Assembly: GCA_000996245.1 (NCBI GenBank)
Contig: LBYP01000003.1
Coordinates: forward strand, 9,509-73,508
Length of the DNA stretch: 64,000 bases
Source of the DNA: Parcubacteria group bacterium GW2011_GWA2_40_23
GTDB taxonomy: Bacteria > Patescibacteriota > Patescibacteriia > UBA11705 > JABHMO01
Reading direction: 5' to 3'
Of the stretch, positions 9,571 to 61,296 are shown piece by piece. A model generated the notes under the pieces. It did no database searches, was not told the origin of the DNA, and was given only the letters and a program-made list of their open reading frames with translations. The position numbers were made by a program, and so were the translations under genes. Within the stretch, counting starts at the first letter, position 1. The number at the start of each line of letters is the position of its first letter.

Positions 9571-9791
9571 GGGATTCCTCTATGTTGATAACGTTTGTAT
9601 TGGTACTCCCCACAAGTGAATATAGCACAGGGAAACATCTTTGTCAACTAAAAAGAGAGAAGGGTATAATAAAGCAAAAGAGAAATAAAACAGTAAATTT
9701 AAATAAAATGTTTATGTTTATAGGGACAGGTCGCGACCTGTCCCCGTGCAAAAAAAATAGCGCCGGTAGAAATGTTCCTACCAGCGCATTG

Positions 9792-13085: not shown

Positions 13086-13127
13086 GGGCTTGTAGGGGCT
13101 CAAGAGATTGAGCCCAGGCTAAAATAT

Positions 13128-14549
13128 ATGTTATACATCCTCATTATCTTCGTACTCTTATTCGCCTACCTCGCCTGGCGCAAACCAATCTGGGCCCTGT
13201 CTTTTGTTGTTTTGGCTTTACCAACATATCTTCTGCGGTTCGAGATTCGAAATATTCCGACAACATTACTCGAAATCATGATTTTAGTTTTGTTTGTCGT
13301 CTGGCTTATCAAAACAATTTTAGAAAAACAAAAAATAACTTTTAGCAAATACAAATGGTGGATTCTGTTGTTGCTTGTCGTTGCGACAGTTTCCGCCTTT
13401 GTGACTTCGGTAGGGGCTCAAAATTTTGAGCCCCTACCGTGGGGAATTTGGAAAGCCTATTTTATTGAACCAATTTTATTCTTCTTGGTGTTTATCAATA
13501 CAGTAAAAACAAAAAAAGAGTGGAACTTAGTCGTTGGTGCGCTATGGTTATCCGCTTTTTTGGTAGCGATTCCCGCAATCATCCAAAAATTTACTGGCTG
13601 GGGAATACCAAATGAGTTTTGGCGAAATGAAGCTACTCGTCGCATCACTTCTTGGTATGGATTTCCCAATGCTGTTGGTTTATATCTGGCGCCAATAGGC
13701 ATGTTCTTTGCTGGATTGTTAATGCAAAATAAAATTAATGTTATTGAAAAATTTAAACAAAACGGTCTTGTAGGGATAGGTCGTGACCTGTCCCCCTTCC
13801 GGAAAAATTTTTGGAAAACAATATCAATTTTATTTTTATTTGTTTTAATTGTGCTGTCTTTAATTTTCGCTGGTTCAGAGGGAGCGCTCATCGGTCTTGT
13901 CGCCGGACTAATTTTCCTTGGTCTTGTCTATCCCTATCGTTTAACAAGAATTGCGACGCTAATATGTTTGCTTTCTTGCTTTCTTGCTTTCTTGATTGTC
14001 CCCAACTGGCGAGAATACGCCTCTGAGAAGTTTACTATGAGTGACCGCTCCGGCCAAATCCGCCAGCAACAGTGGAAGGAAACTTGGACGATGTTAAAAG
14101 AGGATCACCAAATTCTCGGAGGAGGTTTGGCGAATTATCAAACAGCGATTAAGCCGTATCATGCCGAAGGAATTTGGATTAAAGATAAAAATGATCATGA
14201 TTGGATTAATAAAATTAGAATAAGTGAAGAATTTAGAATCAAAAACTGGCAACCAACTGAAATTTATTTATATCCACATAATATTTTGTTAAATTTCTGG
14301 TCCGAAATCGGAATTTTAGGGGCTGGAATAATGTTAGTTTTAGTGCTAAAGTTGTTCCTCGGATACCTGCGAGTCAAAAGTCAGGAAAACAAAAGGATGT
14401 ATTTGATTTTAATGTCAGTTTTTGTCGTTATTCTTGTTCATGGTTTAGTCGACGTGCCGTATTTTAAAAATGATTTAAGTGTGTTTTGGTGGATGTTGTT
14501 TGGTCTAAGTGTGGTATTAATTAAAAGAAAAGAAATATTAATAAAGTAG
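13128..14549 (+). CDS. O-antigen ligase-like (Wzy_C) polytopic membrane protein
   Basis: 473 aa, many TM helices, a large loop with GSEGALIGLVAGLIFLG. Contains in-frame copies of two palindromic repeat families (see findings). Confidence 0.55.
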   Translation: MLYILIIFVLLFAYLAWRKPIWALSFVVLALPTYLLRFEIRNIPTTLLEIMILVLFVVWLIKTILEKQKITFSKYKWWILLLLVVATVSAFVTSVGAQNFEPLPWGIWKAYFIEPILFFLVFINTVKTKKEWNLVVGALWLSAFLVAIPAIIQKFTGWGIPNEFWRNEATRRITSWYGFPNAVGLYLAPIGMFFAGLLMQNKINVIEKFKQNGLVGIGRDLSPFRKNFWKTISILFLFVLIVLSLIFAGSEGALIGLVAGLIFLGLVYPYRLTRIATLICLLSCFLAFLIVPNWREYASEKFTMSDRSGQIRQQQWKETWTMLKEDHQILGGGLANYQTAIKPYHAEGIWIKDKNDHDWINKIRISEEFRIKNWQPTEIYLYPHNILLNFWSEIGILGAGIMLVLVLKLFLGYLRVKSQENKRMYLILMSVFVVILVHGLVDVPYFKNDLSVFWWMLFGLSVVLIKRKEILIK

Positions 14550-16152: not shown

Positions 16153-16242
16153 GGAGGCGTGGCTGAGTGGTCGAAAGCACCGCATTCGAAACGCGGCAGA
16201 TCTTAACCGGTCTCAGGGGTTCAAATCCTCTCGCCTCCGCCA
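16153..16242 (+). tRNA. tRNA-Ser (anticodon CGA), long variable arm
   Basis: Acceptor GGAGGCG/CGCCUCC. Anticodon loop UUCGAAA. Long extra arm CAGAUCUUAACCGGUCUCA. T-arm GGGGUUCAAAUCCUC. Discriminator G followed by CCA. Confidence 0.85.
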
Positions 16243-16309
16243 TGAAGTACACACGGAGTGTGACTTCATGGTATACCATATTTGTTCAGATGTTTTGTAA
16301 AATAAATAC

Positions 16310-17248
16310 ATGAATACAAATCTTTTTAGAACAGAGGAAGAGCGAAAAGTCACTCTTACACCCAAAGAGCTGAAGAATATTCTTGGTGTTGATCCGCAGT
16401 TTGAATCTGTTTCCGAAGCGGTTTACTTTGATAACTACGATCTACCATGTCCAGTAAGGGTGAGCGTAACCACTAAAGACAAAAAAGTAGTAATGATAGT
16501 TCTTAGAAAGAATCGACACGGCGGTATAAAAAACGAAGTAAAAATCTTCCGCGCACTAAAAGAGTTTGGTCTTCCTGTCCCCGAAGTTCTAGTTGAACCT
16601 TTTAAAAATGAAGAAGGCGAGTATGTTGCTATTTTGTCGCTTTTACCAGGAGAAAATCTTCAGAAACTAGGAATGCGATCTGATGAAGGTTTAGCACAAG
16701 CAAAAGAATTGCTTGTGCAGGCCGTAATTACTCTTACCACCGCCACAGATTTTATTAGAAAACATGAAGTATCTAAGATTATTCCAAATATCTCATTAAT
16801 GAAAGAGTTGGCAGACGTAAATGTTGAAGAAAATTCGTGGTTTAAGGAAGAAGTTTTTCAGACCGCAGTCGAAAAACTAAAAAGTATTCTTGAGGATATT
16901 ACAACTCCGTTAGTACTTTCAAATGGAGATTATCAGCCAGGTAATTTTTTGGCAAAGGACGGAGAAATTACCGGTTTCCTCGATTTTGAATCGCTATCAT
17001 TTCAAGACCCGCTAATGGGTTTTGTAAAATATCCGATTTATGATTTACTTCCATTATCTCGAACAGATGTAGTTAAAATATTCTTAGATAAAAAAGGATT
17101 TTCTGAAAAAGACTTTAGTTGTCGCTTGGCTTTGGGATGTTTGAAAGTTCTCAAAAAAGAAATTCCTGTTTCGGGAGGTGATGAAGAAACTCAAGAGTAC
17201 AGAAATAGAACCCTGACCCTTCTGAAGAAAAGTTTGAACTCTCTATGA
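16310..17248 (+). CDS. phosphotransferase-family (APH/choline-kinase-like) protein kinase-fold enzyme
   Basis: Catalytic loop NGDYQPGNFL and a DFE(S) motif (GFLDFESL). 312 aa. Confidence 0.5.
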   Translation: MNTNLFRTEEERKVTLTPKELKNILGVDPQFESVSEAVYFDNYDLPCPVRVSVTTKDKKVVMIVLRKNRHGGIKNEVKIFRALKEFGLPVPEVLVEPFKNEEGEYVAILSLLPGENLQKLGMRSDEGLAQAKELLVQAVITLTTATDFIRKHEVSKIIPNISLMKELADVNVEENSWFKEEVFQTAVEKLKSILEDITTPLVLSNGDYQPGNFLAKDGEITGFLDFESLSFQDPLMGFVKYPIYDLLPLSRTDVVKIFLDKKGFSEKDFSCRLALGCLKVLKKEIPVSGGDEETQEYRNRTLTLLKKSLNSL

Positions 17249-18512: not shown

Positions 18513-18560
18513 TTATTCTAATATCATCTAAATTGGACTTTTTTATACAGTAATAGTTAA

Positions 18561-18728
18561 AATGATGTATATGAAAAATATACAAAAAGAACTGGTGCTC
18601 TTTGAGCGCTTTTACATTCGTCGTTGTTATGATGAAAAGACGGAAACATGGTATTTTTCGGTTATTGATATTATCGCAGCTTTAATTGAGCAAGCTGATT
18701 TTAAGTGCGCACAGAGTTATTGAACAAC
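18561..18728 (+). pseudogene. truncated Bro-N/DinD-like fragment (55 aa), homologous to the N-terminus of ORF 55049-55876
   Basis: ELVLFERFYIRRCYDEKTETWYFSVIDIIAALIEQ aligns with LTIFEGKQIRRLWDEEKELWYFSVIDVISALTDS. It is not in the ORF track because it is under 60 aa. Confidence 0.5.
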
Positions 18729-18932
18729 ACTAAAAAGTCGTCTAAAGAAGGAAGGGAATCAGTCGGTCACAAAATGTGACCAACTGAAAATGTTATTTGG
18801 GTGAGAATTAAAAAATCACAGTCCATCATTTAATCATGTAAATCATAGTACCGAAAGAAGGGTTAAATATTGCCCTTGCCTCGCCAACCAGTAATTGATT
18901 CAATAAAAAGGTTAATTTGGAAATAATATATT

Positions 18933-20039
18933 ATGGCACACGAAAAAATAGATTTAACAAAAAAAGAGCCAGTTACGGTTGAGCCAGAAGAAGGCGAAGC
19001 ACAGGTTTGGGTTCAAGCGCAACCGCCCTGGGAAGATTTCGCTTCAGTCAATGTTGATGAAGACGCCAAAAGAAAAGAAGCCACACCAGAACAGGCTAAA
19101 GAAATGGACAAACGGATGGCGGAACTTGGCGTCGCTTTTGCAGGATCAAAATTAAATTGGCATTTGGATGGAGCTTTAAATATTTCATTATTAGCGGGAA
19201 AATATATTGGTTATCACAAAGACGTTGATGTGTCAGTCGAGCAAGGAGAGTTAGCACAACTTGAAGCTCAACTTTTTGACCATGGTTATGGTCTTTTTTT
19301 GTCTAGTACCAACGAAGAAACAGGTGAACGTCAATTACGCCGCGTGGGATTTAAAGTTTTTCAAGATTCTGAAAAAGAACATATGCTGATTGCAGCCATT
19401 GATGAACGCAGAAAGTTGCGCGAGGATAAGGCTTTGAATTTCGTAGATGTTCATGTGTTAGCTAGAAATGAGGCGGGGCTAGCCTTAGGTTGTTTGGATG
19501 TAGTAATCCCCGAAAAGTGGACCAAACCATATCCAGTTGAATTCAACGGCCAACAAATAAATTTATCGCATCCAGGGAAAGTACTTTATTATAAATTACA
19601 TCAAGACAGAAATTATGATGTGACTGACGTTGAGCGGCTTATTAAAACAGGAAATTTAATGGTTGAAGATGTTGATGATGTCGGCGAAGTTTATGAAAAA
19701 GAATTTAAGGCAAATTTAGCAAGAGCACGTAAACGTTTTGCCCCAATCTCAGCAGAAATAAAATCTGGCACAACAGCAGAACAAATTGCTCAATTATTTT
19801 TTAATGATGAAGAATTTTCTCGCGCCGGCGAAGCGACAAGGCCGGCTTTTGTGGAATTGGGCAAGCAACTTATTGCTTCTGGCGATACTTCTGTCGAGAA
19901 TATGATAAAAATTGCTGTGGGCATATTCAAAGCCGAGGAACAAAACGATCAAATACGGGAGAAGATTGCAAAAATTAGGAAAGATGTTGAGGTGCAGGCG
20001 GAGTTGAAAAATGTTCGAGAGCAAATGTCTAAATCATGA
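18933..20039 (+). CDS. Lnu/ANT(2'')-like nucleotidyltransferase-domain protein with N- and C-terminal extensions
   Basis: NWHLDGALNISLLAGKYIGYHKDVDVSV resembles the lincosamide nucleotidyltransferase motif YWLDGGWGVDVL..HRDIDID. 368 aa. Confidence 0.4.
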   Translation: MAHEKIDLTKKEPVTVEPEEGEAQVWVQAQPPWEDFASVNVDEDAKRKEATPEQAKEMDKRMAELGVAFAGSKLNWHLDGALNISLLAGKYIGYHKDVDVSVEQGELAQLEAQLFDHGYGLFLSSTNEETGERQLRRVGFKVFQDSEKEHMLIAAIDERRKLREDKALNFVDVHVLARNEAGLALGCLDVVIPEKWTKPYPVEFNGQQINLSHPGKVLYYKLHQDRNYDVTDVERLIKTGNLMVEDVDDVGEVYEKEFKANLARARKRFAPISAEIKSGTTAEQIAQLFFNDEEFSRAGEATRPAFVELGKQLIASGDTSVENMIKIAVGIFKAEEQNDQIREKIAKIRKDVEVQAELKNVREQMSKS

Positions 20040-20319
20040 TTTTTGTGATTATATGATTGCCATGATTAAGATAGGTTGTTGTATCGGAAAAAGTTTGAAA
20101 TCATAATTATCATAAAAATCATAGTTAATCATAGTAATGGTAGTGTGCTTGAGTGAAATCATGGTAATCACAAAAATCATAGTTAATCATAGTAATGGTA
20201 GTGTACTTGAGTGAAATCATGGTAATCACAAAAATCATAGTTAATCATAGTAATGGTAGTGTTCCTGAGTAAAATCATGGTAATCATTTAATCATGTAAT
20301 CATAGTAAGCGAAGCGCAC
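20040..20319. repeat. array 1 of the ~58-bp tandem repeat (AAATCATGGTAATCACAAAAATCATAGTTAATCATAGTAATGGT plus a 14-17-nt semi-variable GC-richer segment), ~4 units
   Basis: The direct repeats can be read directly in the sequence. Further arrays at 21373-21651, 21934-22036, 23521-23794 and 24329-24621. Confidence 0.9.
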
Positions 20320-20889
20320 ATGCTCAAACAAATTGATCTTAATCAAAACAAAGTCGATTATACTCTTAAAGTCAGTAAACGTTCACGTCGACTGCGACTC
20401 GCAGTATATTGTGATGGTCAACTTGTTGTTACTGCCCCCAGATTCATGAGTCTACATTACGTCGAAGCGTTTATTTTACAAAAAGCTCAGTGGATTTTGA
20501 GTCGAATAGACTATTTTAAGAAATTTCCAGGCAAAGCCTTGGGGCGTTTAACGAAAAAAGATTATTTTGAACACAAAGCACCGGCCTTGATGCTTGTCCA
20601 GACTCGAATAGCGCACTTCAATCAATTCTATAATGTTAAAATAAACAGGATCAGCATTAAAAATCAAAAAACACGTTGGGGTTCGTGTTCCAAAAAAGGT
20701 AATTTGAACTTTAATTATAAAATAGTCTTAATGCCAACAGAAATGGCGGATTATATTATTGTACATGAGCTCTGTCATCTGATAGAATTTAATCATTCAC
20801 GTAACTTCTGGGTTTTAGTCGCGAGGACTATACCAAGTCATTTGAAAATACGTAGGGAATTAAGAAAAGGGAACTTTAAAATTATTTAG
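20320..20889 (+). CDS. YgjP-like metal-dependent hydrolase (DUF45/WLM-like, HExxH)
   Basis: WGSCS, then HELCHLIEFNHS. 189 aa. Confidence 0.65.
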   Translation: MLKQIDLNQNKVDYTLKVSKRSRRLRLAVYCDGQLVVTAPRFMSLHYVEAFILQKAQWILSRIDYFKKFPGKALGRLTKKDYFEHKAPALMLVQTRIAHFNQFYNVKINRISIKNQKTRWGSCSKKGNLNFNYKIVLMPTEMADYIIVHELCHLIEFNHSRNFWVLVARTIPSHLKIRRELRKGNFKII

Positions 20890-20958
20890 CATCGGGAAAA
20901 CTCGTCTAGATTATGCTTTTCATAATTATTTGATTACCATGATTAGGAAGAGAAAATC

Positions 20959-21372
20959 ATGATAAACGAAAAATATCCCGAGAGCGAATTAACTGAAAAA
21001 ATAATAGGTTGTACCATGGAGGTGCACAAGTATTTTGGTAATGGTTTTCAGGAAGTTATTTACCAAAGAGCATTGGCTATTGAAATGAGATCTCGGGGGC
21101 TGGTCTTTAGTCGCGAACATGAAATGGATATTTATTACAAAGGTACGCATATTGGAACAAGACGTGTCGATTTCTTTGTAGAAGATAAAATAATGGTTGA
21201 GTTGAAAGCCGTAATTACGCTAGAAGATGTTCATCTCGCACAAGCGCTAAATTATTTAGAAGCGTATAATATGGAAATAGGACTGTTGATAAATTTTGGA
21301 TCAAAAAGTTTAACATTTAGAAGGTTGATGAAGAAGAAACGAAAAATTAATCCATCGGAAAAACTCGTCTAA
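20959..21372 (+). CDS. GxxExxY-family protein (PD-(D/E)XK nuclease superfamily)
   Basis: GNGFQEVIYQRAL and EL...D core motifs. 137 aa. The C-terminal codons (PSEKLV) are encoded by the conserved repeat-boundary motif. Confidence 0.65.
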   Translation: MINEKYPESELTEKIIGCTMEVHKYFGNGFQEVIYQRALAIEMRSRGLVFSREHEMDIYYKGTHIGTRRVDFFVEDKIMVELKAVITLEDVHLAQALNYLEAYNMEIGLLINFGSKSLTFRRLMKKKRKINPSEKLV

Positions 21373-21651
21373 ATCATGATTTTTGTGATTATATGATTAC
21401 CATGATTACAACAAGCAGCTTTGTTGTGAAATCACAGTCATCATAAGAATCATAGTTAATCATAGTAATGGTGCTGTCCTCGAGCTAAATCATAGTAATC
21501 ACACAAATCATAGTTAATCATAGTAATGGTGGTGAGGTGCTCGAGCGAAATCATGGTAATCATCTAAATCATAGTTAATCATAGTAATGGTAGTTGGGTG
21601 AATAAATTAAAATCATAGTTATCATTTAATTATAGTAATCATAGACAAAGT
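21373..21651. repeat. array 2 of the ~58-bp AATCATAGT tandem repeat (~4 units)
   Basis: Direct reading of the sequence. Confidence 0.9.
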
Positions 21652-21933
21652 ATGGAAAACACAAATGTGAATCAACCGGTAGTCGAGAAAAAATCGTCGC
21701 ATAAAGTTCTTTGGGGTGTGTTGTGCTTAATTGTTCCTTTCTTGTTGTTTGTTCTGACCTTAAGTGCCTACGCTATTGTTGCCTTTATATCTCAGCAATC
21801 TGCCGTTGAGCCTACTGATACGATACAAAAGGTACAAATGGGTTTAGGTATTTTTGGCATGGTAGACTTTCTTGCTTTCATCGTAGGCATTCCTGTGGGC
21901 ATTGTTTTGTTAGTGAAGAGTAAGAAATCTTAG
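21652..21933 (+). CDS. small membrane protein (2 TM helices)
   Basis: 93 aa, two hydrophobic helices, flanked by repeat arrays. Confidence 0.4.
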   Translation: MENTNVNQPVVEKKSSHKVLWGVLCLIVPFLLFVLTLSAYAIVAFISQQSAVEPTDTIQKVQMGLGIFGMVDFLAFIVGIPVGIVLLVKSKKS

Positions 21934-22036
21934 TTTATAATTTAATCATGGTAATCATATAAATCATGTTAATCATAGTAATGGTGTTTGAGCGAAAATC
22001 ATAGTAATCACATAAATCATAGTTAATCATAGCTTT
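21934..22036. repeat. array 3 of the AATCATAGT tandem repeat (~1.5 units)
   Basis: Direct reading of the sequence. Confidence 0.85.
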
Positions 22037-23520: not shown

Positions 23521-23794
23521 GTTTTATCTTTTTCTAAGGAATATGACCAAATAAATTTTTGTGCTATTTCTGAAGAAGTTTTTCATGATTAAAAAATCAT
23601 AGCCCATCAAATAATCATAGTAATGGTGCTTGAGCGAAATCATAGTCCATCATTTAATCATAGTTAATCATAGTAATGGTGGCTGTGTGTTCGAGCGAAA
23701 TCATAGTAATCACACAAATCATAGTTAATCATAGTAATAGTGCTGTCCTCGATCTAAATCATAGTCATCACATAAATCATAGTTAATCATAGTA
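23521..23794. repeat. array 4 of the AATCATAGT tandem repeat (~4 units)
   Basis: Direct reading of the sequence. Confidence 0.9.
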
Positions 23795-24328
23795 ATGGTC
23801 ACAATCACAAAAGCTCACCCAGGCGCCGAAAAGCAGATTTCTGCTTTAGCCGATGATTATTGTCTAAAAGATAAAACAGAAAAAATCAGTAATTCTGGTT
23901 TTATTGTTTTTCCTAAACCGCCAGCCAAGTTTTTGAAGCGGATTAATCATTGTCAGTATTTTTATGTGGCTAAAGAAGGGCACAAGTTAGTGGGATATTT
24001 ATTGGCTTATACATTGAAAGAAATGGAAGATCTGAATGAAAACTTTTCTTATTTTGATGATCTCAAAAATGCGAGCGAAGGCAAGGATATAGTTTTTTTA
24101 GATCAAATAGTAGTTAGTCGAGAGTATACTGGTCGTGGTCTTGGACAAAACTTATTAGATCATTTACTAAGCAACTTGAAGGATAAACATGTTTTTGGAT
24201 TTATACTTCATGCACCAACTAGAAATCAAAGATCGATAAATTTTTTTCAATCAAAAAACAACTGGCAGTTAATTAAAGAAGTAAGTATCGAAGGCATGCT
24301 CTGTGGGCTTTACGGTTTCAAATATTAG
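23795..24328 (+). CDS. GNAT-family N-acetyltransferase
   Basis: VVSREYTGRGLGQNLLDHLL (acetyl-CoA binding motif). The ATG lies inside the last repeat unit (TAATGGTCAC). Confidence 0.55.
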   Translation: MVTITKAHPGAEKQISALADDYCLKDKTEKISNSGFIVFPKPPAKFLKRINHCQYFYVAKEGHKLVGYLLAYTLKEMEDLNENFSYFDDLKNASEGKDIVFLDQIVVSREYTGRGLGQNLLDHLLSNLKDKHVFGFILHAPTRNQRSINFFQSKNNWQLIKEVSIEGMLCGLYGFKY

Positions 24329-24621
24329 TTGATAGAAAATCATGGTAATCATTTAATCATAGTTAATCATAGTAATGGTGGCGTTCCTGAGCTAAATCAT
24401 GGCAATCATTAAATCATAGTTAATCATAGTAAGGGTGCTGTTCCCGAGCTAAATCATAGTCATCACAGAAATCATAGTTAATCATAGTAATGGTGCTGTT
24501 CTCGAGCTAAATCATGGCAATCATTAAATCATAGTTAATTATGGTAATGGTGATGTGTCTGAGCTAAATCATGGTAATCACACAAATCATAGTTAATCAT
24601 AGTCCCGATAGTTAAGTTTTT
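24329..24621. repeat. array 5 of the AATCATAGT tandem repeat (~5 units)
   Basis: Direct reading of the sequence. Confidence 0.9.
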
Positions 24622-26946: not shown

Positions 26947-27016
26947 TTCCAATTGTCGCGAAGAGAGCGGCTTGCCCTGAAGTCAAACGCAGTTTGTACT
27001 TCAGGGGCGTTGTTGT

Positions 27017-27838
27017 CTATTCCAGCGGTCCGAAGCTGAGATCTTCGCCGCAGTAGGGACAGTTCTTGACCGCACCGGGCAGGCAGGCGAGCTTCGTCTG
27101 TTTTGCCCTCGGACCGGAGATGTCGATCCAGATGAGCGGTTCACCTTCGGGCGACCAGACGATCCTGTCGACCAGCCTGGTGAATCTGGGGAAGCCGCCT
27201 TGCTTCGGGGTGAGGCTGGCTTGGGCTTCGAGCGCCCGCATGTTTTTGCAGCGATGCAGGTAGCTGCCATCGGGATGGAGGGTCCAGACCGCGTTGTGCA
27301 GTTCCCACTCTTTTTGGAGCAGTTCGATGTACGCCCCGTGATCGAAGCCCAGGTGCGTAGGTACTTCGAACAAGGGGATGAACATGGGATTGACTTGAAG
27401 TGTGTTCAGCCATTTTAGCTCGGGCTTGGTTTCCAGGTCGAGGCGCAGGACCATCGAAAGCCGCCGCTTGTCTGTGCGCTTATCGCGATACAGATCCGAG
27501 TGGAAGTACTGCTTGGCCCAGAGCTTGGGGTCTATCTCGAGACCGAAAGTTGCGGCCAGACGCGTGGCTGTCTGGTTGATGTCATGGTCGCAGAGGCTTT
27601 CTTCGACAGCTGGTTTGCTGACAAAGCTGCGACGCTGACTGACTAAATTCCCGGTTGCGAACTCGGTCGTAGGCAGACAGTGCAAGTGCATCGGCAGGTT
27701 CACCAGGGACTCGAATTTGGGCAGAACGAGCAGGATCTCTGGGGTCTTGGTCCGGAACTTGCGGGTTACCATGATGGACAGGTCTAGCACCAGTGGTGTG
27801 AGTCTTGCTTTCTTGCTTGTCATGATGGGCTCCTTCAT
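27017..27838 (-). CDS. hypothetical protein with a C-terminal CPYC zinc ribbon, in a high-GC island (~55% GC)
   Basis: 273 aa, GC3-rich codons, ends ...CLPGAVKNCPYCGEDLSFGPLE. Confidence 0.45.
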   Translation of the reverse strand: MKEPIMTSKKARLTPLVLDLSIMVTRKFRTKTPEILLVLPKFESLVNLPMHLHCLPTTEFATGNLVSQRRSFVSKPAVEESLCDHDINQTATRLAATFGLEIDPKLWAKQYFHSDLYRDKRTDKRRLSMVLRLDLETKPELKWLNTLQVNPMFIPLFEVPTHLGFDHGAYIELLQKEWELHNAVWTLHPDGSYLHRCKNMRALEAQASLTPKQGGFPRFTRLVDRIVWSPEGEPLIWIDISGPRAKQTKLACLPGAVKNCPYCGEDLSFGPLE

Positions 27839-28429
27839 GCCCAGTTGGACATTTCAATTTAGCAAATTATTGCTGTTCCGTCAACTCCATCCGATTTGCT
27901 CCATCCGATTTGCGAGCCTGCCTGCCGGCAGGCAGGGAGCACCTTTGTTAAGAAAGCGACGTTTACCCTGCACCTAAAGGGCACACTTTATGGTACAGGG
28001 CGGCAATCTCTTAATCAATCCCAAGGAAGCAATCTCCGACATCTTGATGATCGTTAGTTAGTAGGGGCTCAAGATATTGAGCCCCTGGATCTAAATTATC
28101 TTTGCCGTTTACCCCGAATCCAAAGGTCATTGCGAACCCAGCTCTGGGCAGGGGTGAAGCAATCTACCAATTCTCAATGATTTTGTTCTGCTAGAGAACA
28201 AAAGCTTTTTATCGCTGTTATTTATGATTGTTTCATTTTCTTGTTCCTCATAATGCGGTAAATGAAAATGTCATAGGGGTTCAAGACATTGAGCCCTCAT
28301 GGAGTTTTGGTCAAAAATACATTTTTCTGGTATAATTTTGTTTGTAGAAGAGTTTGTAGGGGTTCAAGATATTGAACCCTGCCACAAACAACATTTCAAT
28401 ATTTTTATTAAAAATTATTTTTAAAATTT

Positions 28430-31443: not shown

Positions 31444-31833
31444 ATGAAGAAACTTTTTGTTATTTTTGCACTGATATTTTTATTTTGTTCTTTGGCTACT
31501 GTTGTTTTTGCTGGTGAAAAAGCGGCTATAGATGCGGCTATAGACAAAATAGATGTTGGTTTTGGTTCCGGTATTGTCACGGCCAAAGGGGGCGATCCCA
31601 GCACGGTAACTCAAGAATTAATTGGTAATGCCATCAAAATTCTCCTGGGGATAATGGGTTCTGTTGCTTTGTGCATTTTCATTTACGGTGGTATAATATG
31701 GATGACAGCCGGAGGCACACCGGAGAATATTACTAATGCGCAAAACACAATGATTTGGGCAGCAATAGGTCTATTTGCTATTTTTGCTAGCTACATGATT
31801 ATCAATTTCTTAATAGGTTCACTGACGTTTTAA
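31444..31833 (+). CDS. T4SS pilin-like protein, copy 2
   Basis: Same architecture: IWMTAGGTPENI loop between two hydrophobic helices. Confidence 0.5.
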   Translation: MKKLFVIFALIFLFCSLATVVFAGEKAAIDAAIDKIDVGFGSGIVTAKGGDPSTVTQELIGNAIKILLGIMGSVALCIFIYGGIIWMTAGGTPENITNAQNTMIWAAIGLFAIFASYMIINFLIGSLTF

Positions 31834-31870
31834 CAAGTTTAAATAAAAATTAATAATTAACTTTAAGCAC

Positions 31871-32296
31871 ATGCTAAACGTACAAAAAGTTAAAAACATT
31901 GCTCGCCTAGGTGTTTTTGCTTTGGCTATTTTGACTCTCGTTGTGCCAGTAATTCTTCCGTTTGTTACAGCATCAGCTGCAGTTGAGGATTTCGGACTAT
32001 CAGATGTAAGCACTAGCGCTGGTTTGAAGAATGCTGACCTTAAAGCAACTATTGGTAAATTACTCAAGGTTGCTCTAGGCTTCTTGGGTATTATTGCTGT
32101 CATCATTGTTTTAGTTGGTGGTTTTAAGTACATGACAGCTGGTGGTGCAGAAGAAAAAGTTGGTGATGCTAAGAAGTGGATTGTTTCTGGTATCATTGGT
32201 TTAGCGATCGTTTTGAGCGCCTACGCCATTACTTCTTTCGCACTTACACAATTTACAAAAGCATTAACTGATGCTGGCGCACCTAAGGTTGAGTAA
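31871..32296 (+). CDS. T4SS pilin-like protein, copy 3
   Basis: KYMTAGGAEEKV loop. Same family. Confidence 0.5.
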   Translation: MLNVQKVKNIARLGVFALAILTLVVPVILPFVTASAAVEDFGLSDVSTSAGLKNADLKATIGKLLKVALGFLGIIAVIIVLVGGFKYMTAGGAEEKVGDAKKWIVSGIIGLAIVLSAYAITSFALTQFTKALTDAGAPKVE

Positions 32297-32364
32297 TTTT
32301 TTAGTTTGTCCCTCGCCTTTAGCGAGGGACATGACACGAGTTAATTAATAAATTTAATTGATTC

Positions 32365-32769
32365 GTGTCATGTATGAAAAAGACCATTTATTTAAGTATA
32401 ATTTTTATTGCTATATTGACTTTGTTTGCTGCACAAGCAGTTTTTGCAGGTGACCCGCCAGCAGCAGCAAGTACTTTACGCAAAAGTCTCGACACAGCTG
32501 CGACCGAGCCAGGGCTTATTCCAACTAGCGGAGTTACAGACATTCCAAGTATGGTTGGTAAAATAGTGAGTGTGGCCTTGCAATTTGTTTCACTGTTATT
32601 TTTGATAATAATTGTTTACGCTGGTATTCGTTGGATGACGGCCAATGGTGACCCCGGAAAGGTAAAAGAAGCGCGCAGTTGGATGATCCATGCGGCCATA
32701 GGTCTACTTATAACCCTCATGTCTTATCAGGTAGTGGCTTATATAATCGACAAGATTGTAATTCAATAG
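32365..32769 (+). CDS. T4SS pilin-like protein, copy 4
   Basis: RWMTANGDPGKV loop. Confidence 0.5.
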   Translation: MSCMKKTIYLSIIFIAILTLFAAQAVFAGDPPAAASTLRKSLDTAATEPGLIPTSGVTDIPSMVGKIVSVALQFVSLLFLIIIVYAGIRWMTANGDPGKVKEARSWMIHAAIGLLITLMSYQVVAYIIDKIVIQ

Positions 32770-32788
32770 TGTTAGCCGTATAAAAAGT

Positions 32789-33169
32789 ATGAAAAAGGTT
32801 TTAATTTATTTCTTACTATTATCAGTTTTTTGGTGCGCAGGTGTGGCTTATGTCTCGGCTGCCACAGCGCAAGATATTGCCAAGGGTGGTCTTGATGCTA
32901 CTAATGCTAAGGTGGGGTTAGCGGAAGGCGACCCTGCTACAACTATTGGTGCGGCACTGGGCGTTCTGTTGAACATATTGAGTTTAATATTTTTAATAAT
33001 TTGTGTTTACGCTGGGGTTACGTGGATGACAGCTAGTGGCGAAAAAGATAATATTGCTAAAGCCAGATCCATGTTGATTCAAGGTTCTATAGGTCTTGCA
33101 GTAACGCTTGCAGCTTACGCCTTTACTGCGTTTGTGGTTGATCGTATAAGTACAGCTGTAATAAAATAG
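32789..33169 (+). CDS. T4SS pilin-like protein, copy 5
   Basis: TWMTASGEKDNI loop. Confidence 0.5.
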   Translation: MKKVLIYFLLLSVFWCAGVAYVSAATAQDIAKGGLDATNAKVGLAEGDPATTIGAALGVLLNILSLIFLIICVYAGVTWMTASGEKDNIAKARSMLIQGSIGLAVTLAAYAFTAFVVDRISTAVIK

Positions 33170-33173
33170 TGAT

Positions 33174-33596
33174 ATGAAAAACTTTATTTATAATCCACGT
33201 AATTTGAAAATCTTAAGCTTATTATTTATTATTGTTTGTAGTTTTGTTTTTGCTAGTGTTGGTCAGGCGGGGCTCGATTTAAATGGTCCACTAGAAAAGG
33301 CAGGTAAGGGTATTTACGGAGCAGATGCCTTGCCCACAGCAGATCAAATGCCGATTACTATTGGTAAAGTTATTGGAGTAGTTCTTTCCTTAGTTGGTAT
33401 AATTTTGGTAATCATAATCGTTTATGCCGGTTTTACTTGGATGACTGGTGGTGGTGATCCAGAAAAAATTAAAGATGCCAAGAGTTGGATGCTTAATGCC
33501 GTGATTGGTTTGTTGATTTGCCTCGTTGCTTATAGCTTGTCATCTTTCGTGGTGACTAAAATTTTTGAAGCAACAACTGCCACTAAGACACCATGA
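33174..33596 (+). CDS. T4SS pilin-like protein, copy 6
   Basis: TWMTGGGDPEKIKDAKSWMLNAVIGL, nearly identical to copy 7. Confidence 0.5.
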   Translation: MKNFIYNPRNLKILSLLFIIVCSFVFASVGQAGLDLNGPLEKAGKGIYGADALPTADQMPITIGKVIGVVLSLVGIILVIIIVYAGFTWMTGGGDPEKIKDAKSWMLNAVIGLLICLVAYSLSSFVVTKIFEATTATKTP

Positions 33597-34063
33597 AAAA
33601 AATAGGTTTTAAATATTTAATTAATTTTAGTATGATGAAAAAATTCTTCTCTTTGTCATTATTATTGATAATGACAGCCATCCTTGTATCTAATCTTTGG
33701 GTGGTCCCCGCTGTTTCAGCTAGTAATCTTCAATCCAACATACAAGGCAGTATGGACCAGGTGACAAAGGCAGCTGGGTATGGAGATGCTACAACCGGCA
33801 TATCAGATTTGCCAACAATGGTAGGTAATATAATTGGTATTGGTTTAGGTCTCCTTGGTATGGTCATGGTGATAATTATTATTTATTCTGGTTACCTTTG
33901 GATGACTGGTGGTGGTGACCCAGAAAAAATTAAAGATGCTAAGAGTTGGATGTTAAATGCAGTAATTGGTTTAATTATTCTTTTAGCTGCTTATTCGATT
34001 TCAGACTTTGTTATCTTAAAGGTTTTTTGCGCCACAAGCGACAATACTGCTGCTGGTTGCTAG
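33593..34063 (+). CDS. T4SS pilin-like protein, copy 7
   Basis: LWMTGGGDPEKIKDAKSWMLNAVIGL. ATGA overlap with copy 6. Confidence 0.5.
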   Translation: MKKIGFKYLINFSMMKKFFSLSLLLIMTAILVSNLWVVPAVSASNLQSNIQGSMDQVTKAAGYGDATTGISDLPTMVGNIIGIGLGLLGMVMVIIIIYSGYLWMTGGGDPEKIKDAKSWMLNAVIGLIILLAAYSISDFVILKVFCATSDNTAAGC

Positions 34064-35199: not shown

Positions 35200-35518
35200 A
35201 AATTATCAAAACATAAATAAACTTAATATAAACTTATCAGATATTATTAAATGATTCAATTAACTTATACACACGAAGAAGGAAACAAACAATCAATTAA
35301 TCAATAAAACAAAAAGCAAAATCAATGGTACGTGTAAGTCGCGACTTACACGTACGGGATTGCTAATCACCCGTAGGTGCAGGTCGCGACCTGCACCTAC
35401 GGGAAGGATGAATCCACTCGCAAAAAGAGCCTTGATTTTATGCCTGAATTTTGGTATGGTGTGAATGTAATTTAGAAGATTCAAAAGGGGTGATTAACTA
35501 TTAATCAGGCTATTTTTT

Positions 35519-41284: not shown

Positions 41285-41374
41285 AAAAAATTGTACGTAA
41301 CAACGCATTTGCGTTGTAGGGAACAAAAATTTTTGTTCCCTACCGTCCATACGGACGGTTCGTACAATTTTTTT
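41285..41374. repeat. ~85-bp nested palindromic element, copy A
   Basis: Outer stem AAAAAATTGTACG...CGTACAATTTTTTT. Inner hairpins GTAGGGAAC-aaaaattttt-GTTCCCTAC and GTCCATACGGAC. Confidence 0.8.
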
Positions 41375-45420: not shown

Positions 45421-45503
45421 AAAATGTACGCGCAACACGTCTGTGTTGTAGGGAACAAAAATTTTTGTTCCCTACCGTCCAAATGGACGGGGCGTACATT
45501 TTT
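45421..45503. repeat. ~85-bp nested palindromic element, copy B (near-identical core to copy A)
   Basis: GTAGGGAACAAAAATTTTTGTTCCCTACCGTCCAAATGGACGG flanked by the AAAATGTACG...CGTACATTTTTT outer stem. Confidence 0.8.
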
Positions 45504-47053
45504 TATTGTTTCCACAGCTCCTCAAAATAATCATTGTACGATTGCACCAAATGTTCATTTTCAGAAATAAAGAAGATGGGCTTTTTTTTGTCTGCCCAAT
45601 TAGCAATGACGAGTTTTTTGCCATAGAGCCAGACAACATTGGGGTTGCCTATTTTTGAAAGATTATATTTTGTGCGACTCCATGGATATTTGGTAATGGC
45701 ATGGCCTTGGACACTACGATCAACAATATTGCGCCAAATAATCCCCGGAGTATTTTTGGCTTTGGCTTCAATCTTTTTAAAAAGTTCAGGATAATAATCG
45801 ATAAAATATCCGCGGGCGCCAATCAAGCGTAATTCCTTAGTGTCAAGCGCTTCAAACCAAATTTTCTGCAGAGCTTCTGGACCTTGAAGTGTGTACGTTT
45901 CTTGCTGCCAAATATTATCAAAATAATTTTTGAATGATTCAGCCATGATTGGATTATCGAAAGAGATAACAGTTGGAACTTTTTCGTAAAGAATGAAAAA
46001 AATCTTATTGTTATAAATATTTATCTGCATCGGTATGGGGGTGGTGTTGATGTATTTTCTTAAAAAGCTTACTTTGCCTTCGGGATCCCCACATTTGGCA
46101 AATTTTTCTTTTAAATTATCATATGATTCTTGAAAACAAAGCATTTTTGTTATTACACCTTTTTTTATTCTTTCGGTGTGAAATTTGTCGTAGAGTTCAT
46201 GGAAACCAGGTGGATAATCTTTGCCTAAAGCACCGAGAACATAATAATGTTCCCCAGGTTTTAGTGCATTGAGCTGATCATAAATAGCTTCTTCAACAGC
46301 ATCTAATCCAGTTTTAGTGATGGTTCGTTGATTCCAAAAATAGTTGAAGTATTTTTTAAAGCCCTCAACAATTTTTTTGTCTTTGACGCTAATCGTAATG
46401 GGGTTATCACTCATCAACCCGATATTTAAAAGATCATCAATAAAATCAAACCAAAAAGGGGAATCGATATTGAAGGGTAGAAAGCGAGCTTTGCTCAATG
46501 GCAAGGAGTTTCTCCACGCCAAGCCTTCTTTGACGAGTGGGTCAGATGAAAGCTCATATAAAATTTTTTGACTGATTTTTTTCTTTTCACGTTCTTTGTG
46601 AAAACGCTTCCAAAATGATTCCATTTCTGGTTTTGATGTTAAATTTGTTGCGCCAAGAACATAAAACTCACTACCAGCTGGATAATTTAAAACGCGATTG
46701 CGAGCTCTTTTAATCCCTTCAACGCCCGCAAAGATTTGGATGTCGCCAGCTTCTGTGGTGTGTCTTTTGTGTAGTTCAATAATAATTTCCTTCGCTGTTT
46801 CTTCTTGATCAAGAACGTTTTCGAGAATCGATTCAGGATTGTTGGGAATGAACTCAGCTACGCCACGAGAGGTGAGTTTTGAAACCAACTTTTTTTTAAG
46901 TAATGATTCAAGAGACGTATAAACTAGGTTACGATGTAATCCCGTAAGTTCAATTATTTTACCAGCGCGGCTTTTCCCGTTTTCAATTAGGTATAAATAT
47001 ACAGTGATTTCATTAGGTGAAAAGCCTAGTTGTTGTAGTTTGTCTTTTATCAT
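45503..47053 (-). CDS. TrmB-family transcriptional regulator with a triplicated C-terminal domain
   Basis: N-terminal wHTH (ITVYLYLIENGKSRAGKIIELTGLHRNLVYTSL). Three ~150-aa repeats ending FKKYFNYFWNQ, FKNYFDNIWQQ and YNDYFEELWKQ. Confidence 0.55.
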   Translation of the reverse strand: MIKDKLQQLGFSPNEITVYLYLIENGKSRAGKIIELTGLHRNLVYTSLESLLKKKLVSKLTSRGVAEFIPNNPESILENVLDQEETAKEIIIELHKRHTTEAGDIQIFAGVEGIKRARNRVLNYPAGSEFYVLGATNLTSKPEMESFWKRFHKEREKKKISQKILYELSSDPLVKEGLAWRNSLPLSKARFLPFNIDSPFWFDFIDDLLNIGLMSDNPITISVKDKKIVEGFKKYFNYFWNQRTITKTGLDAVEEAIYDQLNALKPGEHYYVLGALGKDYPPGFHELYDKFHTERIKKGVITKMLCFQESYDNLKEKFAKCGDPEGKVSFLRKYINTTPIPMQINIYNNKIFFILYEKVPTVISFDNPIMAESFKNYFDNIWQQETYTLQGPEALQKIWFEALDTKELRLIGARGYFIDYYPELFKKIEAKAKNTPGIIWRNIVDRSVQGHAITKYPWSRTKYNLSKIGNPNVVWLYGKKLVIANWADKKKPIFFISENEHLVQSYNDYFEELWKQ

Positions 47054-61212: not shown

Positions 61213-61296
61213 TAAAAATATACGGACCGCCCATTCGGACGGTAGGGATAGGTCGAGACCTGTCCCTACAACGCAGCGCGTTGATCCGTATATTTT
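61213..61296. repeat. ~85-bp nested palindromic element, copy C (inverted orientation, different central hairpin)
   Basis: AAAAATATACGG...CCGTATATTTTTT outer stem. Encloses CCATTCGGACGG and GTAGGGATAGGTCGAGACCTGTCCCTAC. Confidence 0.75.

What the first reader, a model, noticed from the sequence alone, without database searches (positions are those of the whole stretch)
20885..21420. Conserved cassette-boundary motif that doubles as coding sequence
The 3' boundary of each cassette carries CATCGG(A/G)AAAACTCGTCTA(A/G)ATCATGATTTTTGTGATTATATGATT(A/G)CCATGATTA. After the YgjP-like gene this motif is intergenic (20890-20958). After the GxxExxY gene the same motif supplies the last six codons and the stop (PSEKLV*, 21352-21372). 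After the Lnu-like gene its TCTAAATCATGA part supplies the stop (20028-20039). One boundary sequence reused in and out of frame suggests the genes were captured or recombined at this site and were not diverged in place.
Basis: seen in the sequence. Interest (0 to 1): 0.65.

Follow-up and report, generated by a model that had tools for sequence, protein, structure and literature searches.

The report
Inverted arm of a palindromic repeat
The "boundary motif" is the flipped copy of the same short repeat that fills the neighbouring tandem arrays; together they form a palindromic, apparently mobile intergenic element, found in several bacterial phyla, that typically brackets a small nuclease gene (GxxExxY) and sits flush against neighbouring genes, so that it often donates their stop codon.

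Summary
The motif is real. It has three plus-strand copies: 21368-21408, 20028-20068 (40/41 identical) and 20905-20945 (34/41). The next best match in the window is 26/41. It is not a separate boundary signal. It is the forward "arm" (a GTCTAAAT-like box plus four phased TGATT subrepeats) of the repeat whose reverse copies build the 58-nt tandem arrays.

A profile built from arms in unrelated metagenome contigs, mostly Bacteroidota-like, hits only this 6-kb island. In five GxxExxY loci retrieved by protein alone, from Bacteroidota, a cyanobacterium and a spirochaete, inverted repeats bracket the gene. The host stop and start codons often lie at the element ends.

A close relative (L057, 78-88% identical) has the same operon in compact form. 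It has no GxxExxY gene and at most one reverse arm per junction. Against it, the window shows indels bounded by repeats: 259 nt after the nucleotidyltransferase gene and 763 nt (B-GxxExxY-C-array) between YgjP and the membrane-protein gene. Other relatives carry GxxExxY at a different junction.

However, the SKS tail of the nucleotidyltransferase is ancestral, no integrase is present, and only three junctions carry the motif. The mobilising mechanism is inferred, not shown.

The parts
20028..20068 (+). Copy A: forward arm. TCTAAATCAT is the ancestral 3' end of the nucleotidyltransferase. The inverted arm GATTTTTGTGATTATATGATTGCCATGATTA follows. The stop codon TGA lies at 20037-20039.
   Evidence: nhmmer with the arm profile hits 20036-20070 on the plus strand, E 1.4e-4. 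40/41 identical to C. Conserved in L010 at 86-90%, against 66% for the adjacent coding DNA. L057 has TCTAAATCATAG without the arm.
20038..20296 (.). 259 nt present here but absent in relative L057: forward arm A plus reverse-arm array 1. It is bounded by direct AATCAT repeats and by inverted arms (20046-20067 and 20273-20294).
   Evidence: Collinear BLAST blocks and junction alignment against L057. Inverted repeat I1 is 91% complementary. Fold z-scores are -2.1 to -2.2.
20096..20308 (-). Array 1: 3.7 tandem 58-nt units. Each unit is a reverse-orientation arm (AATCATGGTAATCACAAAAATCATAGTTAATCATAGT) plus about 20 nt of semi-variable sequence.
   Evidence: TRF: period 58, 91% matches. nhmmer minus-strand hits, E about 3e-6. 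L057 has only a two-subrepeat remnant at this junction and L010 about 1.3 units.
20890..20945 (+). Copy B: a pre-box (CATCGGGAAAACTC) followed by a degenerate forward arm (GTCTAGATTATGCTTTTCATAATTATTTGATTACCATGATTA). It is the left end of the GxxExxY cassette. The TAG just before it (20887-20889) is the YgjP stop.
   Evidence: 48/56 identical to C. It aligns with the spacer upstream of GxxExxY in L010 and L006. nhmmer support is weak: 20929-20948, E 0.22.
20889..21651 (+). 763 nt absent from L057, lying between YgjP and the membrane-protein (TM) gene: B, then GxxExxY, then C, then array 2. The right end reads ...TAATCATAGACAAAGT|ATG, with the TM start immediately after it.
   Evidence: BLAST blocks and junctions against L057. 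In L006 and L010 the GxxExxY gene sits after the TM gene instead.
20959..21372 (+). GxxExxY / PDDEXK_3 gene (137 aa), the cargo of the cassette.
   Evidence: Pfam PF13366, E 1.6e-38; TIGR04256, E 5e-41. About 80% amino-acid identity to homologues labelled Bacteroidota and Microcystaceae.
21353..21408 (+). Copy C: forward arm overlapping the last codons and the stop of GxxExxY. It is a mosaic of B (5' 15 nt) and A (3' 41 nt).
   Evidence: nhmmer hit 21376-21409 on the plus strand, E 6.6e-5. It pairs with the first unit of array 2, z -3.3.
21428..21644 (-). Array 2: 3.6 reverse-arm units (period 58-61).
21937..22032 (-). Array 3: about 1.5-2 reverse arms between the TM and methyltransferase genes. 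L057 has a single AAATCATAG here.
23588..23799 (-). Array 4: about 3.3 reverse-arm units. The TAATGG of the last unit supplies the GNAT start codon (23795).
   Evidence: The last arm is 93% identical to L057, against 86% for GNAT coding DNA.
24337..24603 (-). Array 5: 4.6 reverse-arm units. Positions 24374-24565 are extra relative to L057.
18807..18866 (-). Degenerate reverse-arm remnant upstream of the nucleotidyltransferase gene.
   Evidence: family D12. Weak nhmmer hit at 18830-18849. BLAST matches to L006 arms.

Best explanation
The motif is the forward-orientation arm of a repeat: a terminal box GTCT(A/G)AA(C/T) followed by four TGATT subrepeats spaced 9-10 nt apart. The reverse-orientation copies of the same repeat make up the neighbouring 58-nt tandem arrays. 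A forward arm plus a reverse arm forms a long, bulged, imperfect palindrome.

The same arm occurs in contigs from several phyla. There it forms ORF-less palindromes of 100-230 nt, or brackets a GxxExxY (PD-(D/E)XK nuclease family) gene. These elements lie exactly at the junction between two host genes.

In this window:
- Copy B is the left end, and the array after copy C the right end, of a ~763-bp GxxExxY cassette lying between YgjP and the membrane-protein gene.
- Copy A opens a 259-bp palindrome-plus-array stretch after the nucleotidyltransferase gene.

The overlap with coding sequence is a by-product. The arms carry TAA, TAG and TGA triplets and abut the upstream ORF, so whichever frame enters the arm terminates within a few codons.

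Shown:
- the identity of the copies and their orientation;
- membership of the arm family;
- indels bounded by repeats relative to close relatives;
- different positions of the GxxExxY cassette in different relatives;
- the mosaic structure of copy C.

Inferred:
- the element is, or was, mobile in the manner of a MITE (miniature inverted-repeat transposable element), possibly mobilised by the GxxExxY nuclease;
- arrays grow by slippage or unequal crossing-over;
- copies are homogenised by gene conversion;
- the repeats serve as substrates for swapping cassettes.
For: Statistics and orientation:
- Three copies at 41/41, 40/41 and 34/41, against a background of at most 28/41.
- The motif is the reverse complement of the unit core: ATGATTTTTGTGATTA versus TAATCACAAAAATCAT.

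Family membership:
- A profile of 50 arms from unrelated metagenome contigs hits only 18.8-24.6 kb of the window. The units hit on the minus strand; A and C hit on the plus strand.
- L057 carries a complete reverse arm including the box, which was not part of the pattern used to fetch the arms.

Palindromes:
- z -2.1 to -3.3 in the window, -4.4 in L010, and -5 to -10 in the metagenome elements.

GxxExxY context, in loci found by protein alone:
- L011, L053 and L055 have a forward arm, the ORF, then a reverse arm.
- L051 has a palindrome, the ORF, then a palindrome; the gene ends AAG TCT AAA CTA TGA inside the box.
- The distant Treponema homologue is also flanked by inverted repeats. The Persicobacter homologue is flanked by phased GGATT/AATCC runs.

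Position at gene ends:
- 26 of 85 arms have a same-strand ORF ending within -60 to +50 nt of the box, against 117 of 1700 random positions. Stops often fall inside the arm.
- Homologue tails such as KSEL, LNYD and NHS are translations of arms.

Comparison with relatives:
- L057 has a compact operon without GxxExxY and with at most one arm per junction.
- The window has extra stretches of 259, 763, 86 and 192 nt bounded by subrepeats.
- GxxExxY sits at a different junction in L006 and L010.
- Arms are 90-93% identical between the window and L057, against 78-86% for coding DNA.
- Copy C is a B/A mosaic.
Against: - No transposase, integrase or RAYT (REP-associated tyrosine transposase) was found in the window ORFs scanned.
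- No target-site duplication is visible at the junctions.
- The direction of each indel (insertion here or deletion in L057) cannot be polarised without an outgroup.
- Within one palindrome, the variable spacer positions of the two arms are no more complementary than arms taken from different elements (5.4 versus 5.9 of 12, permutation p = 0.92). What is conserved is therefore the phased subrepeat sequence, not base pairing. That would also fit a bound protein or a regulatory role.
- Reverse arms persist as single, well-conserved linkers just upstream of start codons even in the compact operon of L057, which hints at a function.
- In this genome the repeat is confined to one 6-kb island within the 64 kb seen.
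- Most of the metagenome arms were fetched with a pattern derived from this window, so that part of the census is biased.
Confidence: 0.6

Rival explanations
1. The arms are functional linkers between cistrons, not selfish DNA. They would act as an RNA stem-loop or protein-binding array that processes, stabilises or terminates the upstream message and re-starts translation of the next cistron. They would be kept by selection, and the arrays would be simple slippage expansions.
For: - In the compact operon of L057, single reverse arms sit exactly between the stop and the start. The stop lies in the first subrepeat (AAATCATAG) and the start in or just after the last one (TAATGG).
- The arms are more conserved than the flanking coding DNA.
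- The phased subrepeat sequence, rather than pairing, is what is conserved.
- The GNAT start codon lies in the unit in three relatives.
- The analogy is to MIRUs (mycobacterial interspersed repetitive units), whose ends overlap adjacent genes in a polycistron (PMC3184786).
Against: - Arms occur in both orientations relative to genes, and as ORF-less palindromes after terminators, in other phyla.
- Several junctions of the same operon in L057 have no arm at all: YgjP|TM, PGA_cap|ANT and ATP-grasp|MTase3.
- Copy number ranges from 0 to 5 at orthologous junctions.
- The sigma-70-type scan finds only weak matches, and those lie on the antisense strand.
- There is no Rfam family.
Confidence: 0.25
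2. The island is an integron-like cassette array, and the palindromes are attC-like sites used by a site-specific recombinase encoded elsewhere.
For: - The island holds small accessory genes on one strand (APH-, ANT- and GNAT-like genes, methyltransferases) next to tRNA-Ser.
- Imperfect palindromes lie at the 3' ends of genes.
- The box GTCTAAA / GTCTGAAC ... GTTCAGAC loosely resembles the attC R''/R' cores RYYYAAC/GTTRRRY (my own knowledge of attC).
- Cassette content differs between relatives: S51 peptidase versus kinase, APH versus MFS transporter, and GxxExxY at different junctions.
Against: - No tyrosine recombinase was found in the window ORFs scanned.
- The box does not fit GTTRRRY, having C at position 4.
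- The arms are about 40 nt with four phased subrepeats, unlike the R/L boxes of attC.
- Only two junctions carry a full palindrome, while the others carry tandem reverse arms.
- Gene order is conserved and collinear among relatives.
- In other phyla the elements are dispersed singly, not in cassette arrays.
Confidence: 0.1
3. The similarity is chance in AT-rich DNA, or a product of misassembled repeats.
For: The region is AT-rich (33-34% GC) and built from a 9-nt subrepeat, so short matches are easy to obtain.
Against: - 40/41 and 34/41 identity, against at most 28/41 in shuffles, and zero expected matches.
- The same gene spacing is seen in an independent ENA assembly and in short contigs from other samples.
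- Copy A is conserved in L010.
Confidence: 0.02

Closest known systems
MITEs (miniature inverted-repeat transposable elements) such as Correia/CREE, ERIC and RUP, and the modular pneumococcal BOX element (A-B(n)-C) (review PMC3184786)
   Same: - Small intergenic elements without a transposase, carrying terminal inverted repeats.
- Presence/absence differences between close relatives.
- An internal module repeated a variable number of times, as in boxB.
- Positions next to gene starts and ends.
   Different: - The arms are about 40 nt and built from four phased 9-10-nt TGATT subrepeats plus a box.
- No target-site duplication is seen and no cognate transposase is known.
- The same arm sequence occurs in Parcubacteria, Bacteroidota and a cyanobacterium.
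- Full-length versions carry a PD-(D/E)XK nuclease gene rather than a DDE transposase.
MIRUs, the mycobacterial interspersed repetitive units (Supply et al. 1997, as summarised in PMC3184786)
   Same: - Tandem units of 40-100 bp in intercistronic regions of operons.
- Unit ends overlap the stop and start codons of flanking genes.
- Copy number varies between strains.
   Different: - The sequence is unrelated.
- MIRUs are GC-rich and restricted to Mycobacterium.
- No associated nuclease gene and no inverted-arm architecture of this kind has been described for them.
REP/BIME elements and REPtrons (REP-associated tyrosine transposase flanked by REPs); GTAG/CGTC-tagged REPs (PMC3733652)
   Same: - Extragenic palindromes.
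- A gene bracketed by inverted copies of the repeat that it may mobilise.
   Different: - REPs are 20-40 nt GC-rich hairpins with a GTAG or CGTC tag and a Y1 HUH transposase.
- Here the arms are AT-rich and untagged, and the associated gene is a PD-(D/E)XK nuclease.
- The window also contains separate GTAG-type hairpins (families D9 and D11).
Integron attC sites and gene cassettes
   Same: - Imperfect palindromes at the 3' ends of promoterless-looking accessory genes arranged on the same strand.
- Cassette content varies between relatives.
   Different: - There is no integrase.
- The core sites do not fit the attC consensus.
- The arrays consist of tandem half-sites.
- The operon backbone is conserved.
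ORF-containing intervening sequences of 23S rRNA (an ORF inside a long stem excised by RNase III; my own knowledge)
   Same: A small ORF is bracketed by inverted repeats and inserted into a transcribed unit without disrupting the flanking functions.
   Different: - The location is between protein-coding genes, not in rRNA.
- RNase III processing was not tested.
- The cargo is GxxExxY, not the four-helix-bundle S23p protein.

Membership tests
MITE-like palindromic element | Terminal inverted repeats flanking a short segment with no transposase | tested here: met
   Forward arm 20046-20067 and reverse arm 20273-20294 are 91% complementary. Thirteen complete palindromes of 100-229 nt were found in the metagenome loci.
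MITE-like palindromic element | Presence/absence polymorphism at orthologous sites | tested here: met
   The window carries 259-nt and 763-nt stretches that are absent from the collinear relative L057. The direction of the events is not polarised.
MITE-like palindromic element | Target-site duplication | tested here: inconclusive
   No duplication is evident at the junctions. The 259-nt stretch is bounded by AATCAT, which is itself a subrepeat.
MITE-like palindromic element | Cognate autonomous element or transposase with the same ends | tested here: inconclusive
   No transposase was found in the window. The only recurrent cargo between arms is GxxExxY, and its activity is unknown.
MITE-like palindromic element | Many dispersed copies in one genome | tested here: not met
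   Within the 64 kb available, all copies lie in 18.8-24.6 kb. The rest of the genome was not available.
Integron attC / cassette array | Integron integrase (IntI) adjacent to the array | tested here: not met
   No Phage_integrase-type hit among the ORFs scanned.
Integron attC / cassette array | R''/R' core sites RYYYAAC ... GTTRRRY | tested here: not met
   The arm consensus ends are GTCTGAAC ... GTTCAGAC. The window has GTCTAAAT and GTCTAGAT.
Integron attC / cassette array | One attC per cassette at its 3' end | tested here: not met
   Forward arms occur at only three junctions. The other junctions carry 1.5-4.6 tandem reverse arms.
Integron attC / cassette array | Excised circular cassettes | not testable with these tools
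   This needs raw reads.
MIRU-like intercistronic VNTR (variable-number tandem repeat; analogy only) | Tandem 40-100-bp units between cistrons, with ends overlapping the flanking stop and start codons and copy number varying between strains | tested here: met
   Period 57-61. The ANT stop, the GxxExxY stop and the GNAT start lie in repeat sequence. Copy number is 3/3/1/3/5 here against 1/0/1/1/0 in L057.
REP/BIME | GC-rich hairpin of 20-40 nt with a GTAG or CGTC tag, and a RAYT gene | tested here: not met
   The arms are AT-rich and carry no tag. No Y1 transposase was found.
CRISPR array | Identical repeats separated by unique spacers, with cas genes | tested here: not met
   The units are contiguous. 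The 20-nt 'variable' part is semi-conserved. There are no cas genes.
Described RNA family (Rfam 15) | Match to a curated covariance model | tested here: not met
   Only tRNAs were found in the window. Nothing was found in the island at E up to 1, and nothing at the arms in 12 related loci.

The most novel reading that the evidence does not exclude
GxxExxY genes with their inverted arms are autonomous mobile cassettes of a type not yet described. The small PD-(D/E)XK nuclease would recognise the phased TGATT arrays and box, and would insert the cassette precisely at stop/start junctions inside operons (often type I restriction-modification operons), where the cassette donates a stop codon to the upstream gene and leaves the downstream start intact. 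The ORF-less palindromes and the tandem arrays seen here would be its non-autonomous derivatives. The ~80% protein identity across Parcubacteria, Bacteroidota and cyanobacteria would reflect ongoing transfer between phyla.
Probability: 0.3. Interest if true: 0.8.

Novelty: new variant of a known kind. Interest (0 to 1): 0.6.

Why it matters
If the reading holds, it has four consequences.

- It assigns a role to GxxExxY/PDDEXK_3. This is a very large protein family of unknown function (16,214 representative clusters at E up to 0.001). It would be the cargo, and possibly the engine, of a palindromic cassette that lodges between genes in operons.
- It explains the odd, unrelated C-terminal tails seen on many annotated GxxExxY proteins.
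- It shows how reduced CPR genomes can still vary an accessory operon, through recombination at short repeats.
- It gives a simple sequence signature (box plus four phased TGATT subrepeats) that annotation pipelines could use to flag these elements and correct gene ends.

If the rival explanation is right, the arms would be a conserved intercistronic control element shared across phyla. That would also be new.

Tried and rejected
- **Rfam.** A gathering-threshold scan of the whole window, an E-value scan of the island and a scan of 12 related loci found nothing at the arms.
- **Integron reading.** There is no integrase and the ends do not fit attC.
- **CRISPR reading.** There are no unique spacers.
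- **Sigma-70 promoter and terminator scan.** Only weak 9/12 matches were found, on the antisense strand of the units, and the excess over shuffles is not convincing.
- **Pairing constraint between the arms of one palindrome.** None was detected at variable positions (p = 0.92, n = 10). I therefore do not claim a structure supported by covariation.
- **Exact 21-nt core in GTDB species genomes.** Only two single hits, in an Acidiferrales and a Paludibacter MAG, with no arrays.
- **Viral contigs.** No match.
- **Plasmid database.** A full palindrome gave no match. The GxxExxY protein gave only two records.
- **Literature.** Searches for GxxExxY, PDDEXK_3, the arm sequence itself, Bacteroidetes MITEs and intervening-sequence proteins found no description of this element.
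- **Structure.** AlphaFold2 of GxxExxY with 45 close homologues gave mean pLDDT 47.7, so no fold search was run. There is no PDB relative by sequence and no PADLOC family.
- **Neighbouring small ORFs.** Pfam scans of small ORFs next to arms in the metagenome loci found no common neighbour other than GxxExxY.
- **An idea I dropped.** I first thought the membrane-protein gene had been relocated. L057 shows that the backbone order YgjP-TM-MTase is ancestral and that it is the GxxExxY cassette that occupies different junctions.
Full report
**Setting.** The window is chromosomal DNA of a Parcubacteria (Candidate Phyla Radiation, CPR) bacterium. The GxxExxY protein is identical to UT32_C0002G0031 of "Parcubacteria group bacterium GW2011_GWC2_39_14", and dnaA and dnaN lie at 4.9-7.7 kb.

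Downstream of tRNA-Ser (16153-16242) lies a run of genes on one strand:
- an APH-like kinase and a PGA_cap protein;
- a broken Bro-like gene fragment;
- an ANT(2'')-like nucleotidyltransferase (18933-20039);
- YgjP (20320-20889);
- GxxExxY/PDDEXK_3 (20959-21372);
- a 93-aa membrane protein, called TM here (21652-21933);
- a methyltransferase, a P-loop kinase, a GNAT acetyltransferase, a second methyltransferase, an ATP-grasp protein and a third methyltransferase.

Between several of these genes lie tandem arrays of a 57-61-nt unit. The unit is itself built from a 9-10-nt subrepeat, AATCATAGT.

**The observation.** The three copies exist.
- Taking C (21353-21408) as reference, B (20890-20945) matches 48/56 and A (20013-20068) matches 46/56.
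- Over the 41-nt core the figures are 40/41 for A and 34/41 for B.
- Nothing else in the window exceeds 26/41, and 100 shuffles never exceed 28/41.

Two corrections are needed. The printed consensus fits only copy C. And the motif occurs at three junctions, not at every cassette boundary.

**What the motif is.** Its core is the reverse complement of the array unit: ATGATTTTTGTGATTA versus TAATCACAAAAATCAT. The island therefore holds one repeat in two orientations, about 17 reverse copies (the arrays) and three forward copies (A, B and C).

I searched the metagenome collection with a pattern taken from the unit. This returned 39 loci, mostly Bacteroidota-like. In them the same 36 nt continue into a terminal box...AATCATAGTTCAGACAA. 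An inverted partner, TTGTCTGAACTATGATTnnnRTGATTnnnRTGATTAnnATGATT, often lies 40-200 nt upstream.

A profile of 50 such arms was then run against the window.
- It hits only 18.8-24.6 kb.
- All array units hit on the minus strand (E from 1e-7 to 1e-2).
- Copy C hits on the plus strand (E 6.6e-5), as does copy A (E 1.4e-4). Copy B hits weakly (E 0.22).

The motif's GTCTAAAT/GTCTAGAT corresponds to the box. The cyanobacterial version reads GTCTAAAC. Relative L057 carries a complete reverse arm with the box (AATCATAGTCCAGACAG; profile positions 2-46, E 5e-7). The box was not part of the fetching pattern, so this match is independent support.

**Palindromes.** A forward arm and a reverse arm fold into bulged stems in which the subrepeats pair and the spacers form internal loops.
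- z is -2.1 for A and -3.3 for C in the window, -4.4 in L010, and -5 to -10 in the metagenome elements.
- In ten complete palindromes, the variable positions of the two arms are no more complementary than arms taken from different elements (5.4 versus 5.9 of 12, p = 0.92).

The conserved feature is therefore the phased subrepeat sequence. I cannot say whether the active form is a hairpin or duplex DNA bound by a protein.

**Link to GxxExxY.** The protein is about 80% identical to homologues labelled Bacteroidota and Microcystaceae. Homology stops after ...FKRVMKP, and the tails are unrelated to one another. Some tails are translations of arms: KSEL* from TCTGAACTATGA, LNYD, and NHS from AATCATAGT.

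In loci retrieved by protein identity alone, the gene is bracketed by inverted repeats:
- **L011** (Bacteroidota, hsdR-GxxExxY-hsdM), **L053** (Edaphocola, hsdS-GxxExxY-hsdR) and **L055** have a forward arm, the ORF, then a reverse arm. In L011 the upstream host gene's stop lies in the box. In all three the downstream ATG follows the box within a few bases.
- **L051** (Microcystaceae) has a palindrome, the ORF, then a palindrome. The gene ends AAG TCT AAA CTA TGA inside the box, the same arrangement as at copy C here.
- The **Treponema** homologue (47% identity) is flanked by the inverted repeat ACACGGATTCG / CGAATCCGTGT. The **Persicobacter** homologue (65% identity) is flanked by phased GGATT/AATCC runs.

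Across all fetched loci, 26 of 85 arms have a same-strand ORF ending within -60 to +50 nt of the box, against 117 of 1700 random positions. The commonest offsets place the stop codon inside the arm.

**Comparison with relatives.** L057 is collinear with the window and 78-88% identical to it. It carries a compact operon:
- The order is PGA_cap-ANT-YgjP-TM-MTase-S51 peptidase-GNAT-MTase2-ATP-grasp-MTase3.
- It has no GxxExxY gene, and spacers are 3-71 nt with at most one reverse arm each.

Against L057 the window has these differences:
- an extra 259 nt at 20038-20296, made of copy A plus array 1 and bounded by direct AATCAT repeats;
- an extra 763 nt at 20889-21651, made of B, GxxExxY, C and array 2, between YgjP and TM;
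- an extra 86 nt at 21939-22024;
- an extra 192 nt at 24374-24565;
- a kinase-plus-array segment in place of the S51 cassette.

In L006 and L010 the GxxExxY gene, with a B-like spacer upstream, sits after the TM gene instead. The cassette thus occupies different junctions of one conserved backbone. This is the best evidence here that it moves.

Two further points bear on how the copies evolve. The arms are 90-93% identical between the window and L057, while coding DNA is 78-86% identical. Copy C is B-like in its first 15 nt and A-like in its last 41 nt. Both fit homogenisation by recombination.

- **Copy A.** The codons TCT AAA TCA are ancestral. L057 has ...ATG TCT AAA TCA TAG followed directly by reverse-arm subrepeats. 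Only the stop differs: TAG from AATCATAG there, TGA from the AATCAT|GATT inversion junction here and in L010. The nucleotidyltransferase family is CPR-wide, so this gene was not captured at the motif.
- **Copy B.** It is the left end of the GxxExxY cassette. The TAG just before it serves as the YgjP stop here. The equivalent TAG serves as the TM stop in L006 and L010 (inference).
- **Copy C.** The P and S codons are shared with the nearest orthologue (INPS...). About four codons and the stop come from the arm.

**Mechanism.** I commit to a MITE-like palindromic element whose full form carries GxxExxY.
- It lodges at gene junctions.
- It is expanded locally by slippage or unequal exchange.
- It is homogenised by gene conversion.
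- It provides homology for swapping cassettes.

The membership, the indels and the mosaic are shown. Mobility by a nuclease-driven mechanism is inferred. No transposase or integrase is present in the ORFs scanned, no target duplication is visible, and the direction of the indels is unresolved.

The main rival is a selected intercistronic control element. It is favoured by the well-conserved single arms that sit just upstream of start codons in the compact operon of L057.

**Novelty.** I found no description of this element:
- no Rfam family;
- nothing in the paper library for GxxExxY, PDDEXK_3 or the arm sequence;
- the one paper that lists PDDEXK_3 gives its function as unknown (PMC3424549).

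The nearest known kinds are MITEs, the pneumococcal BOX element, MIRUs, REPtrons and ORF-bearing rRNA intervening sequences (PMC3184786; PMC3733652; the rest from my own knowledge).

**Limits.**
- Most metagenome arms were fetched with a pattern derived from this window.
- Only seven GxxExxY contexts outside this genome's close relatives were retrieved by protein rather than by the arm pattern.
- Organism labels are those of the source records.
- Only 64 kb of this genome was seen.

Noticed in passing
window 9720-9744, 13770-13794, 35373-35397, 61242-61266; also 13087-13115, 13405-13433, 28056-28084, 28268-28296, 28351-28379; and 41301-41372 / 45433-45504: A second, unrelated repeat class: GC-rich hairpins that begin with GTAG (GTAGGGAYAGGTCGNGACCTGTCCC; GTAGGGGCTCAAGAnATTGAGCCC), plus a 72-nt pair that is 88% identical. 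They look like GTAG-tagged REP elements (compare PMC3733652).
   Followed up: no
window 27000-28000: A block of 54-59% GC in a genome of 33-40% GC. It holds one 273-aa minus-strand ORF (27017-27838) with no Pfam, PADLOC or Rfam hit. It is nevertheless the stretch best conserved with relative L006 (81.6% over about 870 nt). I cannot say whether it is a protein gene or a structured RNA.
   Followed up: partly
window 18518-18920: About 400 nt absent from relative L057, where PGA_cap and ANT are 8 nt apart. It contains a Bro/KilA-like gene fragment (18562-18805) with an in-frame TGA, and a degenerate reverse arm. Intact genes beginning with a similar N-terminal sequence lie directly after arms in a metagenome locus (L034).
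   Followed up: partly
window 16153-17248 compared with L057 5448-6769: tRNA-Ser(CGA) is 94% conserved between the two, but it is followed by an APH-like phosphotransferase here and an MFS transporter in L057. This is another swapped gene at the edge of the island.
   Followed up: no
L011, L051, L053 (and probably L041): GxxExxY genes sit inside type I restriction-modification operons, between hsdR, hsdS and hsdM, in unrelated contigs labelled Bacteroidota and cyanobacterial. YgjP, the neighbour here, is from my own knowledge also a frequent neighbour of type I R-M genes.
   Followed up: partly
L013 3180-4300: A tandem array of about eight ~140-nt units in a metagenome contig. Each unit starts with a forward arm, followed by CACTCAA-type heptamer runs and a GC hairpin. 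Arm-containing modules are therefore amplified in tandem outside CPR bacteria too.
   Followed up: no
window 23792-23797 (also L010 1929-1934, L057 11262-11267): The GNAT start codon is the ATG inside the unit's TAATGG, a TAA/ATG stop-start overlap. Several units in arrays 2 and 5 contain six-codon mini-ORFs (ATG GTG CTG TCC TCG AGC TAA).
   Followed up: no
window 31444-34063: Four consecutive paralogous small genes of the T4SS_pilin (PF18895) type share a conserved Y-x-G-x-x-W-M-T core (direct-repeat families D6 and D7).
   Followed up: no
one search hit list: Some GxxExxY relatives are 250-275-aa proteins with two tandem GxxExxY domains. The family has 16,214 representative clusters at E up to 0.001.
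   Followed up: no
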